A stretch of 64,000 nt of DNA, taken from assembly GCF_046119375.1 (NCBI RefSeq), contig NW_027362767.1, positions 84,010,001 to 84,074,000 of the forward strand. Direction: 5' to 3'. The position numbers are program-made. This document shows positions 36,001 through 42,000 of the stretch, in pieces. How positions within the stretch are numbered: the first letter of the stretch is position 1; each line of letters begins with the position of its first letter. The DNA comes from Phyllobates terribilis. Its lineage: Eukaryota.

Positions 36001-39000
36001 ATGGATATCAAAATCACAGAAACTGCAGAAAAGAAACAGGGCCAATAGAAAACAATGAAAAATAATACAATGAAGTAAAAAAAAATGTTATAAAGAACAA
36101 TGGCAAAGTGTTTACTCTACAAAAAAAAGGGCGAAACTCAATGTTTCATTTAGGCTATGTTCACACGTTGCTTTTTTGCTGTGTTTTTTTTTTTTTTTTT
36201 AATGCAAATTTTAAGCTGCGTTTTACTGTACCAGTAAAAGCTGTGACATTTCAGAAATCTCATGTAATTTTTTTTTCCTGACTGAATTGGAAAACTGCTG
36301 CGTTTTTGCAGAATGCAGCATGTCACTTCTTTCAGCGTTATTCACCCGTAGAAAGCAATGGGTGCGTGCAAAAAACGCAGGAATCAGGTTTTGCTGCTTT
36401 TTTGGTGCAGAAACCTGAGGTAGTTGGATCATGTTTTTTATGCACTAAACTTCATCAGCAAACACAAAAGACAAATGTACCCTGAGAAAAACGCACCAAA
36501 GAAAAACAAAAACGCAACGTGTGAACACAGCCTTAATCTGTCTGGAACCATGGTTTCCAATTTAGTGACCCATTTTGTTTCTCTCTGGGCAAATACTTTT
36601 TTTGTTGTAATTACCACCATGAACGCGGCAGCGTAAAACATCCGGCCCACGTACCATAAATGATCTCGTATTCTTAGAGTCTACACAATACTGAGTCTCT
36701 GAATGTAGCCAGAGCTCCTGATGGAGTAATAGACTGAAAGGACCACAAAGATTCAGCAGTCCCCTGTAAGGATTCAGTAGTCCCATGTAAGTGCCTTTGG
36801 TCTCAGTCTTATTTGGACCTGCTCCAGCAGGCAGTGACACTGTGCTTGCACACAGTATTTCCCATGACCTAGGACGATCTCCTAATGAGACCATACAATG
36901 GGACTTTGCTCCAGAGCGCCCCCTCACAGGTCTCAGGTGGTCTGGGACACAGTAGGACACCACTAATAGATTTTTGGCCACACATACAGAACATCCAGGA
37001 ATAAGCGCCGCACTGTGAGGACCGTGCTGCAGCGCGCCCTCTTGTGGTAATATGAAAGAATGCAGCGTTCTCGCGATAGTTTCCGTCCCGGAACCAGCTG
37101 GTCCCTGTACGCTTCCTGCGTAGAGCCGCTGTTCCCTCCGGCCTCTGGTTTACGACGTTTGCGTGGCTGAGAGCGCAGCAGATAGCGCCATGTGTGGAGG
37201 CTGCGTGCAGCAGGAGTATCCGGACCGGGTGAGGAGGCGCTGCAGCAGCTGTGGTCGGAGAAGGAGTGATGGCCGCTGTGTGCAGCCCAAGAGAGGGAGG
37301 TGACGACCACCAGGGGGCTCCTCTAGTGCTGTGGTTGTCACTAGCTGGCAGGTTATACATGTCTGCTTCTCATATGGCTCAATGAGCAGTTTCATCACTT
37401 AGACATGTGGCGGTGGTCGTGGTTGGCGATCACCCTCATATTTGGCAGCCGTCGTGGTTTTGCCCATGTGGTTGGCGACAGTCGTGGTTGTCGCTCAGAG
37501 TGGTGCAACAAACATATTATTTTCCCCATGGAAATACTAAAAAACTAGACTCGTCTCATGGACCAGCACTGCACACCTCCCTCCATCAGCATCCTGCTGG
37601 GGCATCTGATCGGCTGCAGCGGTCACATTTCATCCAAGCCAAAGTAATGGTGCTGCAGAGCCAGCAGGTATGTGATTTGCATACACGCAGTCACATACCG
37701 ACTAGATGTGCGCAGCCTCGTCCAATGCAAGTGAATTGAGCAAGGTCGGGCACGTCTAGTCGGAATGTGTCAGGAATATACAAATCGCACACTTGTGGTC
37801 ACGTGCCCCAGCGTTGGCATTGGAGAATCCTGACAGTCTGTGTGCTGTGAGGATTCACAAGTCTGCAGTCACACAGAGTCTGGACAACCCTTTAGTAGTT
37901 AAAATCAGTCAGTAGCGCTGCAAAAAGTAGCTGTGCAGCCCAGCTGTAATGTGTGAGAGAAGCTAAGATTTTTTTCTTCTTTTGAGAAAAAACATCCAAT
38001 AAGGATTCTAAAAGCCGACACACGGACCAAAGAGGAGTCTAATATACTGATCAAAACAAACCACAGACTGGTTTCCACATGATATTCACATGTGATGCCA
38101 AATTTGTGACAGCAGATTTTTTTTTTTTTGTTTCCCAACAAAAAAAAAATCTGCAGTTTGTCTGTGAATGGGACTTGCTGTCAGTGAATTTTTGTGATTT
38201 GGCTATTTAAGAAAAAAAAGGCAGACAGGTCATGGTCTGTGATGGCAAAGGTTGGATTTTTGACAACTGTGGCATTAACTAACATGTGACCACATTAGAT
38301 GCCACATCTCATTATGCTCTTCTTGTCTGAGCACAGACTGGCCATGGGTCTAACACAGGCATGTCCAAAGTCCGGCCCGCGGGCCATTTGCGGCCCGCGG
38401 TCCGGACTAATAAGGCCCCCAGGTATCCAGCAGCATGTACCTTGCGGCCGCTGCCGCTCTCGTCGCCACCGCCGCTCAGTACTCCGGCGCAGGGAGAAGA
38501 GCCGAAATCTCGGACATCGCGAGATTTCGGCTTTCCTTCTCCCTGCGCCGGAGTACTGAGCGGCGGCAACCGGCCAGCCAAGATCTCGCGACGTGCGAGA
38601 TCTCCAGCCCCCAGGGGTTGTAAGACGTTCAGAGGTCAGATAGGCTGAAGACCTCAGCTTAGTTGTGTAAAATTATATAAATAATATATATATATTAAGT
38701 TATATATAAGTCCCTGCGCCACCTTACACCTCCAGAAAGGTTAGGCCAGCAGGGCTCTCACACAAGCTTGTGGTAGCAAGCTGTCATACCCTTCATTAAC
38801 CCCTGACTGCCTGTCACTGTGCTATAATTCCATTATCTGATGTGCGACTGTTGCACAGCTTGCTATTCTCTGCCTGTGTTATAAAGCATATAGCAGTATC
38901 TTATTTTTGCTGTTCCACCCTCTGCGCCTTTTAATCTCTCCCCTTCTGGCCAATTTTTTTAATGGCAACTACAAATAAGAAACGAAAAGTTGACAGTGAG

Positions 39001-42000
39001 GGCCGCCGCTTCCAGGACAAGTGGAAAGTAGAATATTTTTTCACTGAAATAAAGAATCACTGTGTTTGTCTGATATGCCAAGAGACCGTTGCTGTTTATA
39101 AAGAATTTAATGTCAAGCGACACTATCAGACGAGACATAGCACATACGACAAGCTAACAGGGCACGACCGAAGTGAAAAGTATAAGCAACTTGAAGCTGT
39201 TTTATTGTCACAACAGCGATTTTTTACAAGAGCCCGTGAGTCAAATGAAAATGCCACAAAGGCGAGCTATGAGGTGGCAGCGTTAATTGCTAAAAATTGC
39301 AAATCTTTTGCAGAGGGTGACTTTATCAAAGAATGTGTTATGAAAATGGTAGAGAATGTCTGTCCCGAGAAGAAGCAAGAGTTTTCCAACATTTGCCTGG
39401 CTCGTAACACTGTAGCACGGAGAATTGAAGAAATTTCATCGGATATTAAGAGACAGTTAATGTCAAAAGGAGCTGATTTTGACTTCTTTTCAATAGCCTG
39501 TGATGAAAGCACGGACCTATCTGACACGGCTCAGTTGCTGATTTTTTTAAGAGGGGTGGACGATGAAATGAATGTGACTGAAGAGCTACTTGACCTCCAG
39601 AGCCTCAAGGATCAAACAAGAGGGAAAGATTTATTTGATTCTGTTAGTTCTGCCATAGATGACATGAAACTGCCTTGGAACAAAGTTACTGGGATTATTA
39701 CTGATGGGGCACCTGCCATGACTGGTGAACGAAGTGGATTATCAACCCTAATCTGTAACAAGGTGAGCGAAGAAGGAGGCAAAGCTATTAAACTTCATTG
39801 CATCATTCATCAACAAGTTCTCTGTGCTAAACATCTCCAATATGATCATGTTATGAAACCGGTACTAAAGACCATTAATTTTATCCGCTCTAAAGCCCTG
39901 TGCCACCGCCAGTTTAAACAGTTTCTACTGGATATCCAGGCTGAATATGAAGATGTTTCATATCATAACGATGTAAGATGGCTCAGTCGGGGGTCTGCAC
40001 TGCAACGTTTCTACTCTCTCAGAAAGGAAATAGGAGAATTCTTGGAAACAAAGGGACAAACGATGCGAGAACTATCTGATCCAATTTGGCTGGCTGATTT
40101 GGGGTTTCTAGTCGACCTAACAAAGCATCTGAATGTACTGAACATGAATCTTCAGGGCAAAGATGCAGCTGTGAACCAACTTTATTCACACCTCAAAGCC
40201 TTTGGAACAAAGCTGCAACTTTTCCTAAGGCAGTTGTCACAAACACCGCCCAATACCATCCATTTTTCAGCGCTACAGGAAATAATTAACAGTTTTCCAC
40301 ACGATGATATCCATGCGCAAATAAGCAGGTATGCAGCAGACATCACATCTCTGGCTGGGGAGTTTCAACGGCGCTTTCAAGATTTTGCAGCTATTGAAAA
40401 GGAGATCAGCATTTTCTCCTCTCCATTCTCTGTTGACCCCGACAATGCTCCTGATCAGTTGCAGCTCGAGCTCATTGAGCTACATTGTGACAGCGAGTTA
40501 CGCAGTCGTCATCAACAGCTCTCTCTTGTTAACTTTTACCGCCAACTGGATAAGAGCCGGTTTCAAGAGATTCGAACATTGGCTAAGAAAACCCTGAGCT
40601 TGTTTGGCTCAACATATTTGTGTGAGAAGACATTCTCTGTTATGAACTTTAACAAGAACCGCGTGAGGACAAGACTAAGTGACTCTCACCTGCGTGACAT
40701 TTTGCGCATCAAAACCACGGCCATTGAACCAGACCTAGTCTATGTGCTGCAGTCCAGATCCCAGTTTCACCCTTCACATTAGTGCAGGCTAGTTTCTTTT
40801 TTTTAATTGAGATTAATATGTTGTAAAATCTCAATTAATGTCAGTTGGATAGACAGTTATATATTTGAACACATGTATACTTGCTGTTATGTTCCTGTTC
40901 ACATTTTTTGAACTTATAAGTTGACAGACAACCTTACATTACTTTGTGTAATGTACTTTAAAATGTTCCTGAGATACCTCAGTTTCCTGTTTTTATTATA
41001 TTAAAGGGGTTGTCCAAGTTCAGAACCCAGACATACCCCCTTTTTCACCCAGGCAGCCCCCCTGCCATGGGCATCAAAGCATCTCATGCTCCGATGTGCT
41101 CCCTTGCCCTGTGCTATTTACAATGACACACTGCCGGTAGGAGGCTTCACCGGCTCTAATGTGCAGGCTTTAGCGCTGCTCTAGCTGGTTTACTGGTGAT
41201 AAAGCCCGCCCATCAGTGCCGGTGACGTCACTGGGCTTTCTGCCAGCCCCGTGGAGAGCCGGGTATGTCACTAGAACTCCAGAAAATGCCTTTCCTCTGC
41301 GCAATTTAGTGCAGGGCAAAAGTAGGACATTGGAGCATAAACTGCTTCGATGCTCAAGTCGGGGAGGGGCTTCCTGGGTGAGAATGGGGGTATGTCTGGG
41401 TTAACCCCTTTAAGGCAGATTGATTAAACACCTGTTTAGATTTGTCATCCAAGTCACAAAATAAAAAGTATGCCGTTTTCAATAAACTTTGCAAAAAAAG
41501 TTTATTTGCATTCATTTTAATGGTCCAAAGAATGTCAAGCAAAATGATCGGCCCTCGCACATGTTCACTTCATCAAATTTGGCACTCTTAGAAAAAAGTT
41601 TGGACACCCCTGGTCTAACAGAAATATGAGGGGCCTTTAACCTCGGGCCTTTACCCTCAGGCTCAGCCAGGCTCCATGAGCTTTGAAGGAACCAAAGTCA
41701 CCCTGCATGGCTCTAGTCTGTTGTAGGAATACTAGCCAGGCCCACCTTTCTTTATAGGTACTGACAGGGGTGATTATGGCCTGCTTAAGTTTGGGGGTCT
41801 TTTTGAGGGTCTCTTTGGATTGGCTTAAGAGCTGTGAATGATGTTACTTTTGGCTCAATCACTGACTTCACCATATGCAGCAGTGTAGATATTCCTATAT
41901 AGCCCCTCTATGCCCTGATATATGTCTGCTCGCTTATATTTAGGGGAACACGTGTTTGGAGACCGGATCCTTTCTGTTGAATTATGTAAGTTGTGCAAAG

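What the first reader, a model, noticed from the sequence alone, without database searches (positions are those of the whole stretch)
37190..41500. Possible in-frame CHURC1 exon 1-transposase fusion (exon trap)
The intact transposase is sense to CHURC1 in intron 1. An ~80-nt AG-free zone with a pyrimidine tract and a branch-like TTTAAT precedes its ATG. The first AG (38978-38979) falls exactly at the end of codon 6, so it is phase 0, as is the exon 1 donor. Splicing would give MCGGCVQQEYPDR-KRKVDSEG..., keeping all transposase domains under a host promoter, with AATAAA available near 41459 and 41481. This parallels CSB-PGBD3. It would also divert CHURC1 transcripts. The acceptor is a weak AAG lying ~19 nt from the pyrimidine tract.
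Basis: partly seen in the sequence, partly recalled or inferred. Interest (0 to 1): 0.65.

Follow-up and report, generated by a model that had tools for sequence, protein, structure and literature searches.

The report
Intact hAT transposon in frog CHURC1 intron
A complete-looking cut-and-paste transposon sits in the first intron of a frog's CHURC1 gene in the same direction as the gene; a spliced gene-transposase fusion is geometrically possible, but the sequence alone does not make it likely.

Summary
CHURC1 exon 1 ends in phase 0 at 37228. The 606-codon ORF (38962-40782) is intact and sense. The first AG after an 81-nt AG-free stretch closes codon 6.

The object is a 3,257-bp hAT DNA transposon (38356-41612). 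It has 14-nt terminal inverted repeats, a perfect 8-bp target duplication, and a transposase with a Hermes-like fold. Its relatives are the proteins mislabelled "GTF2IRD2-like" (the hAT-6 group). The host is an anuran, not human, and all four CHURC1 exons are present.

For the exon trap: the pyrimidine-rich leader is compositionally unusual. Two deposited fusion models of relatives join host domains at or near the same ORF start. Capture through transposon-borne acceptors is a published route.

Against it: by a crude acceptor matrix the AG ranks 285th of 326 in the intron, and better cryptic AGs exist. Only 13 host residues, which are not a domain, would be added. No RNA or orthologous DNA could be examined.

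Verdict: an ordinary new insertion of a known family. The fusion remains an untested, low-probability possibility. Spliced models were searched exon by exon and never joined.

The parts
37190..37228 (+). CHURC1 exon 1 coding part (13 codons, phase 0); donor GT at 37229
   Evidence: Sequence. tblastn of frog Churchill proteins P0139 and P0141, residues 1-13, 85-92% identity.
37229..41943 (+). CHURC1 intron 1 (4,715 nt); 3,265 nt of it are the transposon plus one copy of the target duplication
   Evidence: Exon bounds; element bounds.
38348..38355 (.). Left copy of the 8-bp target-site duplication (GTCTAACA)
   Evidence: Identical 8-mer directly outside both inverted repeats.
38356..41612 (+). 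hAT DNA transposon, 3,257 bp, one copy in the window
   Evidence: Inverted repeats plus target duplication. A self-BLAST of the window finds no second copy.
38356..38369 (+). Left terminal inverted repeat, 14 nt
   Evidence: the repeat finder pair I11, 12 of 14 complementary to 41599-41612.
38356..38650 (+). CpG-rich 5' subterminal region (GC 64%, CpG obs/exp 1.03, against 0.51 for the window). It includes a hairpin-like palindrome at 38469-38566 with perfect 31-nt arms.
   Evidence: composition; pair I2.
38897..38961 (+). Pyrimidine-rich leader (78.5% C+T) directly before the ATG. It contains TTTAAT at 38930-38935 and an in-frame TAA at 38932-38934.
   Evidence: 7 such tracts in 64 kb.
38962..40782 (+). 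Transposase ORF, 606 codons plus stop, with no stop or frameshift. It has an N-terminal zinc finger (residues 18-75), a DUF4371 region (123-258) and a sub-threshold hAT dimerisation region (517-582).
   Evidence: Same length and end-to-end alignment with P0001 and P0002 (79% identity, 100% coverage). AlphaFold model pLDDT 85.2. Hermes is the top fold match.
38978..38979 (+).
   Evidence: Crude matrix score -11.9, rank 285 of 326 AGs in the intron.
41001..41413 (.). MITE-like unit with inverted ends, bounded by TTAA on both sides, in the element's 3' non-coding part
   Evidence: the repeat finder pairs I1 and I8; self-BLAST arms.
41460..41486 (+). Two AATAAA hexamers (41460, 41481) in the element's 3' part. 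Others are ATTAAA at 41000 and 41423. Inside the ORF lie AATAAA at 39048 and ATTAAA at 39787.
41599..41612 (-). Right terminal inverted repeat, 14 nt
   Evidence: pair I11.
41613..41620 (.). Right copy of the 8-bp target-site duplication
41944..42079 (+). CHURC1 exon 2 (136 nt)
   Evidence: Pfam Churchill E=2.2e-13 on the exon peptide alone. PDB 2jox Churchill E=2.4e-17. tblastn.
42375..42445 (+). CHURC1 exon 3 (71 nt)
   Evidence: Pfam Churchill E=3e-11 on the open stretch that holds it. Sequence. tblastn.
43445..43537 (+). CHURC1 exon 4 coding part, with stop at 43535-43537
   Evidence: Pfam Churchill E=5.6e-12, to profile end 112/112..

Best explanation
The region holds a structurally complete hAT DNA transposon of the clade whose proteins are routinely mislabelled 'GTF2IRD2-like' (the hAT-6 / Charlie8-related group). 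It inserted in the sense direction into intron 1 of the CHURC1 gene of an anuran amphibian.

Shown:
- 14-nt inverted ends and a perfect 8-bp target duplication.
- A single-exon 606-codon ORF with a zinc finger.
- A Hermes-like fold.
- D, D, E and RW residues that are invariant in the family.

Inferred:
- The element moves, or moved, by hAT cut-and-paste transposition.
- It is normally removed with the intron when exon 1 is spliced to exon 2 at 41944.
- Its transposase, if made at all, comes mainly from the element's own CpG-rich 5' region and its own ATG.

The in-frame geometry between exon 1 and codon 7 is real. However, the AG lies about 18 nt beyond the pyrimidine tract in a purine-rich context. 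Any exon 1-transposase mRNA is therefore most likely a minor by-product. It would add only a 13-residue tag, which amounts to promoter capture and not a new domain architecture.
For: Element anatomy: (inverted repeats, target duplication, single copy).

ORF intact and co-linear with 606-aa relatives.

Protein evidence:
- Pfam zinc finger and DUF4371.
- AlphaFold model with pLDDT 85.2 and pTM 0.73.
- The 11 best PDB fold matches are all Hermes hAT transposase, E 6e-11 to 7e-9.
- C36, C39, H54, H59, D181, D248, R339, W340 and E555 are invariant in 44 of 44 full-length relatives.

The family is large: 16,411 representatives at E<=0.001 and 1,371 at E<=1e-30.

Literature:
- GTF2IRD2-like proteins of fishes, reptiles and frogs are hAT-6 transposons (PMC10641963, part 1 of the text).
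- hAT-6_XT is shared by turtles, fishes and a frog (PMC11008031, passages).

Host gene:
- All four exons hit Churchill separately.
- The best exon 2 matches are anuran (Mantella 93%, Aquarana and Gastrophryne 89%).

Weak acceptor:
- Score -11.9, against 3.4, 5.9 and 7.8 for the true acceptors.
- Rank 285 of 326; 82.5% of 4,494 + strand AGs score at least as well.

Young or protected look: CpG obs/exp is 1.03 in the 5' subterminal part, against 0.51 window-wide.
Against: - The acceptor matrix is my own crude, recalled one. It looks only at -20 to +1, so it cannot credit a distal pyrimidine tract or first-AG scanning.
- The leader before the ATG is unusually pyrimidine-rich (7 tracts in 64 kb).
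- Fish relatives whose models read through their leaders translate it as Pro/Ser/Leu/Ile-rich peptides (P0006, P0015, P0031, P0093). This hints that the tract is a family trait.
- P0080 (Varanus) joins an SNF2 domain to a relative exactly at residue 7.
- P0184 joins SCAN-KRAB-zinc fingers to a full-length relative within a few residues of the ORF start.
- Cosby et al. report transposon-borne acceptors immediately upstream of the ORF in 8 of 9 cases.
- No RNA evidence of any kind was available, so 'minor by-product' is inference.
Confidence: 0.75

Rival explanations
1. CHURC1 exon 1 is spliced to the AG in codon 6 at an appreciable rate. The product would be residues 7-606 of the transposase behind 13 Churchill residues, under the CHURC1 promoter and polyadenylated inside the element. 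This would also lower CHURC1 output.
For: - Phase 0 on both sides, and the first AG after an 81-nt AG-free, pyrimidine-rich stretch.
- The in-frame TAA at 38932 makes this the first AG able to give a fusion.
- Residues 1-9 of the model are disordered (pLDDT below 50), so the swap should not disturb the fold (inference).
- Same boundary in P0080.
- Published principle.
- AATAAA at 41460 and 41481.
Against: - AAG acceptor with a purine-rich final 18 nt; rank 285 of 326.
- The true exon 2 acceptor and several cryptic AGs score far higher.
- None of the 120 proteins listed, the 18, or the 22 Churchill hits combines Churchill with transposase domains. A 13-residue host part would, however, carry no Pfam signal.
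- P0080 and P0184 are deposited or predicted models whose RNA support is unknown.
Confidence: 0.1
2. The element is exonised through other, stronger cryptic acceptors. The products would be chimeric CHURC1 transcripts that are out of frame, truncated, or carry only part of the transposase, so they are noise or decay targets and not a full-length fusion.
For: Higher-scoring AGs by the same matrix:
- 41052 (6.9), inside the MITE-like unit.
- 40278 (5.8), ORF phase 0, residue 440.
- 39496 (5.6), phase 1.
- 39216 (2.7), phase 0, residue 86, which would drop the zinc finger.
- 38336 (4.8), just outside the element's 5' end.

Poly(A) hexamers also lie inside the ORF at 39048 and 39787.
Against: The matrix has the same weakness. 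No donor or enhancer analysis was done, and there are no RNA data. Most strong-looking intronic AGs are never used.
Confidence: 0.15
3. The ORF is a domesticated, immobile host gene nested in CHURC1 and not a transposon copy.
For: The ORF is intact. Relatives have been domesticated before (GTF2IRD2).
Against: Both inverted ends and a perfect 8-bp target duplication are present. The family-invariant catalytic-type residues are kept. The CpG-rich end is not decayed. Closest relatives are multi-copy, with clusters of up to 61 members.
Confidence: 0.03

Closest known systems
hAT-6 / hAT-6_XT transposons (proteins often labelled 'GTF2IRD2-like' or 'SPIN-DOC-like zinc-finger domain-containing')
   Same: - The protein is 79% identical over its full length to 606-aa fish proteins.
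- It is 86-88% identical over 61-96% of its length to frog and turtle proteins with these labels.
- It has terminal inverted repeats, an 8-bp duplication and the DDE/RW residues that the papers use as hallmarks.
- Its patchy frog, turtle and fish distribution matches the published horizontal-transfer pattern.
   Different: Family membership at the DNA level was not tested, because no reference element sequence was on hand. The only Xenopus tropicalis protein listed (P0104) is just 46% identical, so this copy may belong to a sister lineage of the named reference.
GTF2IRD2 (placental-mammal host-transposase fusion with a Charlie8-like hAT part)
   Same: Same transposase clade, which is why relatives carry its name. 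It is a whole transposase captured 3' of host exons.
   Different: GTF2IRD2 has a host part of about 400 aa with GTF2I repeats and is fixed across mammals. Here the host part would be 13 residues, the element still has its ends, and no transcript is known. I did not fetch or align GTF2IRD2. Two unnamed representatives that might be it (P0219, P0253) were left out.
CSB-PGBD3, SETMAR, KRABINER (transposase capture by alternative splicing)
   Same: A transposon in an intron, sense to the gene. The proposed acceptor is supplied by the transposon at the start of its ORF, and the parental transcript would coexist (passages).
   Different: - Those are piggyBac or mariner elements, not hAT.
- They fuse real host domains; the architecture of CSB-PGBD3 is recalled, not checked here.
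- They have transcript evidence and are conserved across species.
- Their acceptors lie upstream of the ATG, whereas here the AG is inside codon 6.
Hermes transposase (house fly hAT, solved structures 2bw3, 4d1q, 8sjd)
   Same: Best fold match over about 520-600 aligned columns, probability 1.0.
   Different: Only 12-14% sequence identity, and no phmmer hit to any PDB chain. The N-terminal zinc finger matches the SPIN-DOC type Pfam model.

Membership tests
hAT superfamily of DNA transposons | 8-bp target-site duplication | tested here: met
   Identical 8-mer at 38348-38355 and 41613-41620.
hAT superfamily of DNA transposons | Short terminal inverted repeats (about 15 bp) | tested here: met
   14 nt, 12 of 14 complementary, at the two ends (pair I11).
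hAT superfamily of DNA transposons | Hermes-like transposase fold (RNase H-like core with a helical insertion) | tested here: met
   Model pLDDT 85.2. The 11 top PDB matches are all Hermes, E down to 6e-11.
hAT superfamily of DNA transposons | DDE triad and RW motif | tested here: met
   D181, D248, E555, R339 and W340 are present and invariant in 44 of 44 relatives. Assigning them as the catalytic residues is by analogy with PMC10641963; no residue-level superposition was made.
hAT superfamily of DNA transposons | C-terminal hAT dimerisation domain (Pfam PF05699) | tested here: inconclusive
   E=0.01, 16.0 bits, below the 21.4-bit cut-off, residues 517-582. Some relatives pass (P0014, P0050).
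hAT-6_XT family (RepBase name used in PMC11008031) | At least 75% nucleotide identity over at least 90% of the reference element (criterion quoted) | not testable with these tools
   No reference DNA was on hand. The supplements of PMC11008031 could not be opened. The tables of inverted repeats in PMC10641963 are PDFs that cannot be read.
Host-transposase fusion gene (sense of Cosby et al.) | Transposon inside a host gene, on the same strand | tested here: met
   The element lies in CHURC1 intron 1 on the + strand.
Host-transposase fusion gene (sense of Cosby et al.) | Usable acceptor supplied by the transposon at the ORF start | tested here: inconclusive
   There is an in-phase AG after a rare pyrimidine tract, but its context is poor. 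P0080 has the same boundary.
Host-transposase fusion gene (sense of Cosby et al.) | Transcript joining host and transposase exons | not testable with these tools
   No RNA or eukaryotic sequence collection was available.
Host-transposase fusion gene (sense of Cosby et al.) | A host protein domain joined to transposase domains | tested here: not met
   Exon 1 encodes 13 residues. The Pfam Churchill match starts at profile position 14, in exon 2, and exon 2 would be excluded.
Host-transposase fusion gene (sense of Cosby et al.) | Maintenance across species or under selection | not testable with these tools
   No orthologous loci could be fetched.
CHURC1 (Churchill, Pfam PF06573) | Four coding exons that together cover the Churchill profile | tested here: met
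   Exons 2, 3 and 4 each hit PF06573, covering profile positions 14-53, 56-87 and 70-112. Frog Churchill proteins give four separate tblastn pieces covering residues 1-112. The exons were not joined.

The most novel reading that the evidence does not exclude
This could be a snapshot of the first step of transposase capture. In this reading a still-complete hAT element is transcribed from the CHURC1 promoter and spliced in frame at an acceptor that this transposase clade carries at the very start of its ORF. That is the boundary seen in the Varanus SNF2-transposase model, and it lies near the boundary in a SCAN-KRAB-zinc-finger-transposase protein. A host developmental gene would then drive a full-length transposase while losing part of its own output.
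Probability: 0.08. Interest if true: 0.5.

Novelty: new member of a known kind. Interest (0 to 1): 0.2.

Why it matters
As it stands, this is one more insertion of a known, widely spread and horizontally transferred hAT family into an intron. It has two practical uses:
- It warns annotators. The ORF will attract the label "GTF2IRD2-like", or may be stitched to CHURC1 by gene predictors.
- It is a clean, datable insertion, with both ends, the duplication and the ORF all present.

If RNA data did show the junction, the locus would be a rare view of a host-transposase fusion at birth, before the element loses its ends. It would let the idea that transposons carry ready-made acceptors be examined in a hAT clade that has already given mammals GTF2IRD2.

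Tried and rejected
- phmmer of the ORF against PDB sequences: 0 hits at E<=1. The fold search was needed instead.
- Exact look-up of the ORF protein: not in the collection.
- Search for longer, fused relatives: 18 hits. In most, the added domains are those of other mobile elements (reverse transcriptase, integrase, other transposases); a few carry kinase or WD-repeat domains. None has a Churchill domain, so the search says nothing about real fusions.
- Self-BLAST for other copies of the element or of its MITE-like unit in the window: none.
- Rfam at gathering thresholds over the window: 0 matches.
- Pfam on 23 of the 43 ORFs of at least 90 aa upstream of CHURC1: 0 families. The other 20, mostly in tandem arrays or overlapping exon 1, were not sent.
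- I first thought the retroelements lay in CHURC1 intron 2. I rejected this once exons 3 and 4 were found at 42375-43537.
- I considered whether the contig is human and rejected it. The exon 2 peptide is 31 of 45 identical to the PDB Churchill chain and 84-93% identical to anuran proteins.
- Inverted-repeat sequences of published hAT-6 copies: an 8-nt motif from the repeat was found 0 times in the 2 readable supplement files of PMC10641963, and the tables are in unreadable PDFs.
- Literature search for CHURC1 plus transposase: 6 papers hold both words and 4 were listed. None concerns such a fusion, judging by title and abstract start.
- One paper reading failed on a term with an apostrophe and was resent without it.

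
Full report
SCOPE AND LIMITS

The window has no N. I do not take it for human.
- The CHURC1 exon 2 peptide is 31 of 45 identical to the one PDB Churchill chain (2jox).
- It is 93%, 89%, 89% and 84% identical to Churchill proteins of Mantella, Aquarana, Gastrophryne and Xenopus tropicalis (22 hits, all with the Churchill domain only).
- The host is therefore an anuran amphibian.

No collection of eukaryotic genomes or transcripts was available. Orthologous loci, other copies of the element and all RNA evidence stayed unchecked.

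The spliced models (CHURC1 exons 1-4, and exon 1 plus transposase) were tested exon by exon.

THE OBSERVATION

Every coordinate checks.
- Exon 1 coding sequence is 37190-37228 (39 nt, phase 0), with donor GT at 37229.
- Exon 2 begins at 41944.
- The ORF 38962-40782 is open for 606 codons on the + strand.
- The AG at 38978-38979 closes codon 6, and the previous AG is at 38895-38896, which leaves 81 AG-free nt.
- An in-frame TAA at 38932-38934 means no acceptor further upstream could give a fusion protein.
- AATAAA lies at 41460 and 41481.

As to chance:
- The + strand of the window has 23 AG-free zones of at least 80 nt among 4,497 AGs, and this one ties for shortest.
- The 65-nt leader 38897-38961 is 78.5% pyrimidine. 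Only 369 of 63,936 windows of that length reach this share. They form 7 tracts, and 5 of those lie in C-rich tandem arrays at 12-15 kb.
- The pyrimidine tract is therefore a real oddity. The AG-free zone is largely its consequence, and the phase match is a 1 in 3 event.

WHAT IT IS

The ORF belongs to a 3,257-bp element, 38356-41612.
- It has 14-nt terminal inverted repeats, 12 of 14 complementary (pair I11).
- It is flanked by a perfect 8-bp duplication, GTCTAACA (38348-38355 and 41613-41620).
- There is no second copy in the window.

Protein evidence:
- Pfam finds a SPIN-DOC-type zinc finger (residues 18-75, E=6.8e-11) and DUF4371 (E=9.1e-6, below its cut-off).
- The hAT dimerisation model reaches only E=0.01.
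- Sequence search of the PDB finds nothing.
- An AlphaFold model built on 44 full-length relatives has pLDDT 85.2 and pTM 0.73. Residues 1-9 are disordered.
- Its 11 best PDB fold matches are all the Hermes hAT transposase, with E 6e-11 to 7e-9 over about 520-600 columns.
- C36, C39, H54, H59, D181, D248, R339, W340 and E555 are invariant in 44 of 44 relatives.

Relatives:
- 998 proteins pass E<=1e-5 among 8,000 scored candidates.
- 16,411 representatives pass E<=0.001 in the exhaustive library.
- The best full-length relatives are 606-aa proteins at 79% identity, one of them from a pipefish.
- Partial frog (Hyperolius, Pyxicephalus) and turtle (Pelodiscus) proteins reach 86-88%.
- Their names are 'GTF2IRD2-like' or 'SPIN-DOC-like zinc-finger'.
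- Hassan and Adelson (PMC10641963; I read part 1 of 3 of the text) show that such names in fishes, reptiles and frogs are misannotated hAT-6 transposons, because mammalian GTF2IRD2 carries a Charlie8-like hAT part.
- Hassan et al. (PMC11008031; passages only) report hAT-6_XT shared among turtles, fishes and a frog by horizontal transfer. The frog, turtle and fish spread seen fits this.
- I could not test family membership at the DNA level.

Other anatomy:
- The 5' subterminal 295 nt are CpG-rich (GC 64%, obs/exp 1.03, against 0.51 window-wide).
- They hold a palindrome with perfect 31-nt arms (I2).
- A MITE-like unit bounded by TTAA (41001-41413) lies in the 3' non-coding part.
- The ORF has no stop or frameshift. 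I count no broken gene in this element.

THE HOST GENE

CHURC1 is complete and compact.
- Exon 2 is 41944-42079, exon 3 is 42375-42445, and exon 4 is 43445-43537.
- Each was recognised separately by Pfam Churchill.
- All four also appear as separate tblastn pieces of three frog Churchill proteins.
- The 5' region is CpG-island-like.
- The three true acceptors are all pyrimidine-AG sites with the tract abutting the AG.

HOW LIKELY IS THE EXON TRAP?

For it:
- The geometry described above.
- The rare pyrimidine tract.
- The published rule that fusions arise by alternative splicing to acceptors carried by the transposon, in 8 of 9 cases immediately upstream of the ORF (Cosby et al. preprint 10.1101/2020.05.07.082677; passages).
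- Boundaries in relatives. My pattern found the basic motif at the ORF start in 60 of the 120 proteins listed.
  - 48 have at most 8 residues, beginning with Met, before the motif.
  - 3 Pelodiscus entries begin exactly at it.
  - 9 have longer N-terminal parts. 7 of these still keep a Met within 10 residues (read-through of the leader). 2 do not (P0014, P0080).
  - The other 60 were not classified.
- In P0080 (Varanus, labelled CHD1-like), a Pfam SNF2 domain runs to residue 272 and the transposase alignment starts at query residue 7 = residue 272. The transposase part of that model is incomplete.
- Among 141 representatives examined (2 of 143 were left out because they might be mammalian GTF2IRD2), 43 carried the pattern.
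  - 34 are native-like.
  - 7 are extended but keep a Met.
  - 2 are extended without one.
- One of those two, P0184, is SCAN + KRAB + C2H2 fingers followed by a full-length transposase from about residue 582. From the protein alone its junction can only be placed within a few residues of the ORF start.
- These are deposited or predicted proteins, and their RNA support is unknown.

Against it:
- I used a crude acceptor matrix with recalled approximate vertebrate frequencies for positions -20 to +1. It is not a trained model.
- The candidate scores -11.9, against 3.4, 5.9 and 7.8 for the true CHURC1 acceptors.
- It ranks 285 of 326 AGs in intron 1, and 82.5% of 4,494 + strand AGs do at least as well.
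- The AG is an AAG, about 18 nt beyond the end of the tract.
- From recalled knowledge, a branch site near 38934 would lie about 45 nt from the AG. That is allowed, but long.
- Higher-scoring AGs lie in the element: 41052; 40278 (phase 0, residue 440); 39496 (phase 1); and 39216 (phase 0, residue 86).
- AATAAA at 39048 and ATTAAA at 39787 lie inside the ORF.
- The fusion would carry 13 host residues and no host domain. Functionally it would be promoter capture with a short tag, unlike GTF2IRD2 (about 400 host residues) or CSB-PGBD3 (architecture recalled).
- No listed protein combines Churchill and transposase domains. Such a short host part would escape that test, however.

VERDICT

This is a structurally complete hAT-6-like transposon inserted in sense in CHURC1 intron 1 of an anuran. 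It is a new member of a known kind.

The DNA gives only weak support for use of that AG, and the question is open until RNA data are seen. I put the full exon-trap reading at about 0.1.

ELSEWHERE IN THE WINDOW

Several retroelements lie downstream of CHURC1, not in its introns. I describe these only in the list of things noticed.

Noticed in passing
window 51781-59892: LTR retrotransposon of Ty3/gypsy type. Direct repeats span at least 51781-52701 and 58971-59892 (98-99% identical, spacing about 7,190). It has an open gag-like ORF at 53248-54120 (weak PNMA match) and an open 1,381-codon pol ORF at 54260-58405 with protease, reverse transcriptase, RNase H and integrase domains. It is described only.
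   Followed up: partly
window 49981-51798 and 59897-61812: ORFs of a second retroelement on either side of the LTR element. Before it lie a LAP2alpha-like ORF and a reverse-transcriptase ORF. After it lie an RNase H ORF and an unassigned 268-codon ORF. The LTR element appears nested in it. The pieces were looked at apart and not joined.
   Followed up: partly
window 45153-47306 (+) and 62722-63927 (-): A 717-codon ORF with a reverse-transcriptase domain, probably a LINE-like element. On the minus strand there is a 401-codon ORF with an integrase core, a Tf2-type SH3 domain and a chromodomain.
   Followed up: no
window 12031-12502 and 13837-15071: C-rich tandem arrays with 21-30-nt units. They explain the longest AG-free zones of the window (up to 856 nt) and three overlapping spurious ORFs of 413-463 codons with no Pfam match.
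   Followed up: partly
window 7208-8804, 19815-20656, 26026-26844, 61791-62511: Further tandem arrays with units of 58-167, 171, 31 and 45-98 nt.
   Followed up: no
window 38356-38650: The transposon's 5' end is as CpG-rich as the CHURC1 promoter region (obs/exp 1.03 against 0.78; window 0.51). It holds a palindrome with perfect 31-nt arms (38469-38566). This fits a young or unmethylated copy with a promoter of its own, but that is inference.
   Followed up: partly
window 39048-39080: An AATAAA hexamer lies 70 nt into the proposed fusion exon, inside the ORF, and is followed by a GT-rich stretch. Its meaning is unknown.
   Followed up: no
protein P0184 (unnamed representative): A 1,184-aa protein with SCAN, KRAB and C2H2 zinc fingers followed by a full-length relative of this transposase (40% identity). 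It looks like a host-transposase fusion of the KRAB type in this hAT clade. Its organism and transcript support are unknown.
   Followed up: partly
proteins: Frog, turtle and fish proteins of this family are 79-88% identical to the window's ORF, despite the age of those lineages. This matches the horizontal transfer reported for hAT-6_XT.
   Followed up: partly
window 1-36900: No protein family was found in 23 of the 43 ORFs of at least 90 codons upstream of CHURC1, and there was no Rfam match anywhere in the window. Spliced genes there would have been missed by this look.
   Followed up: partly
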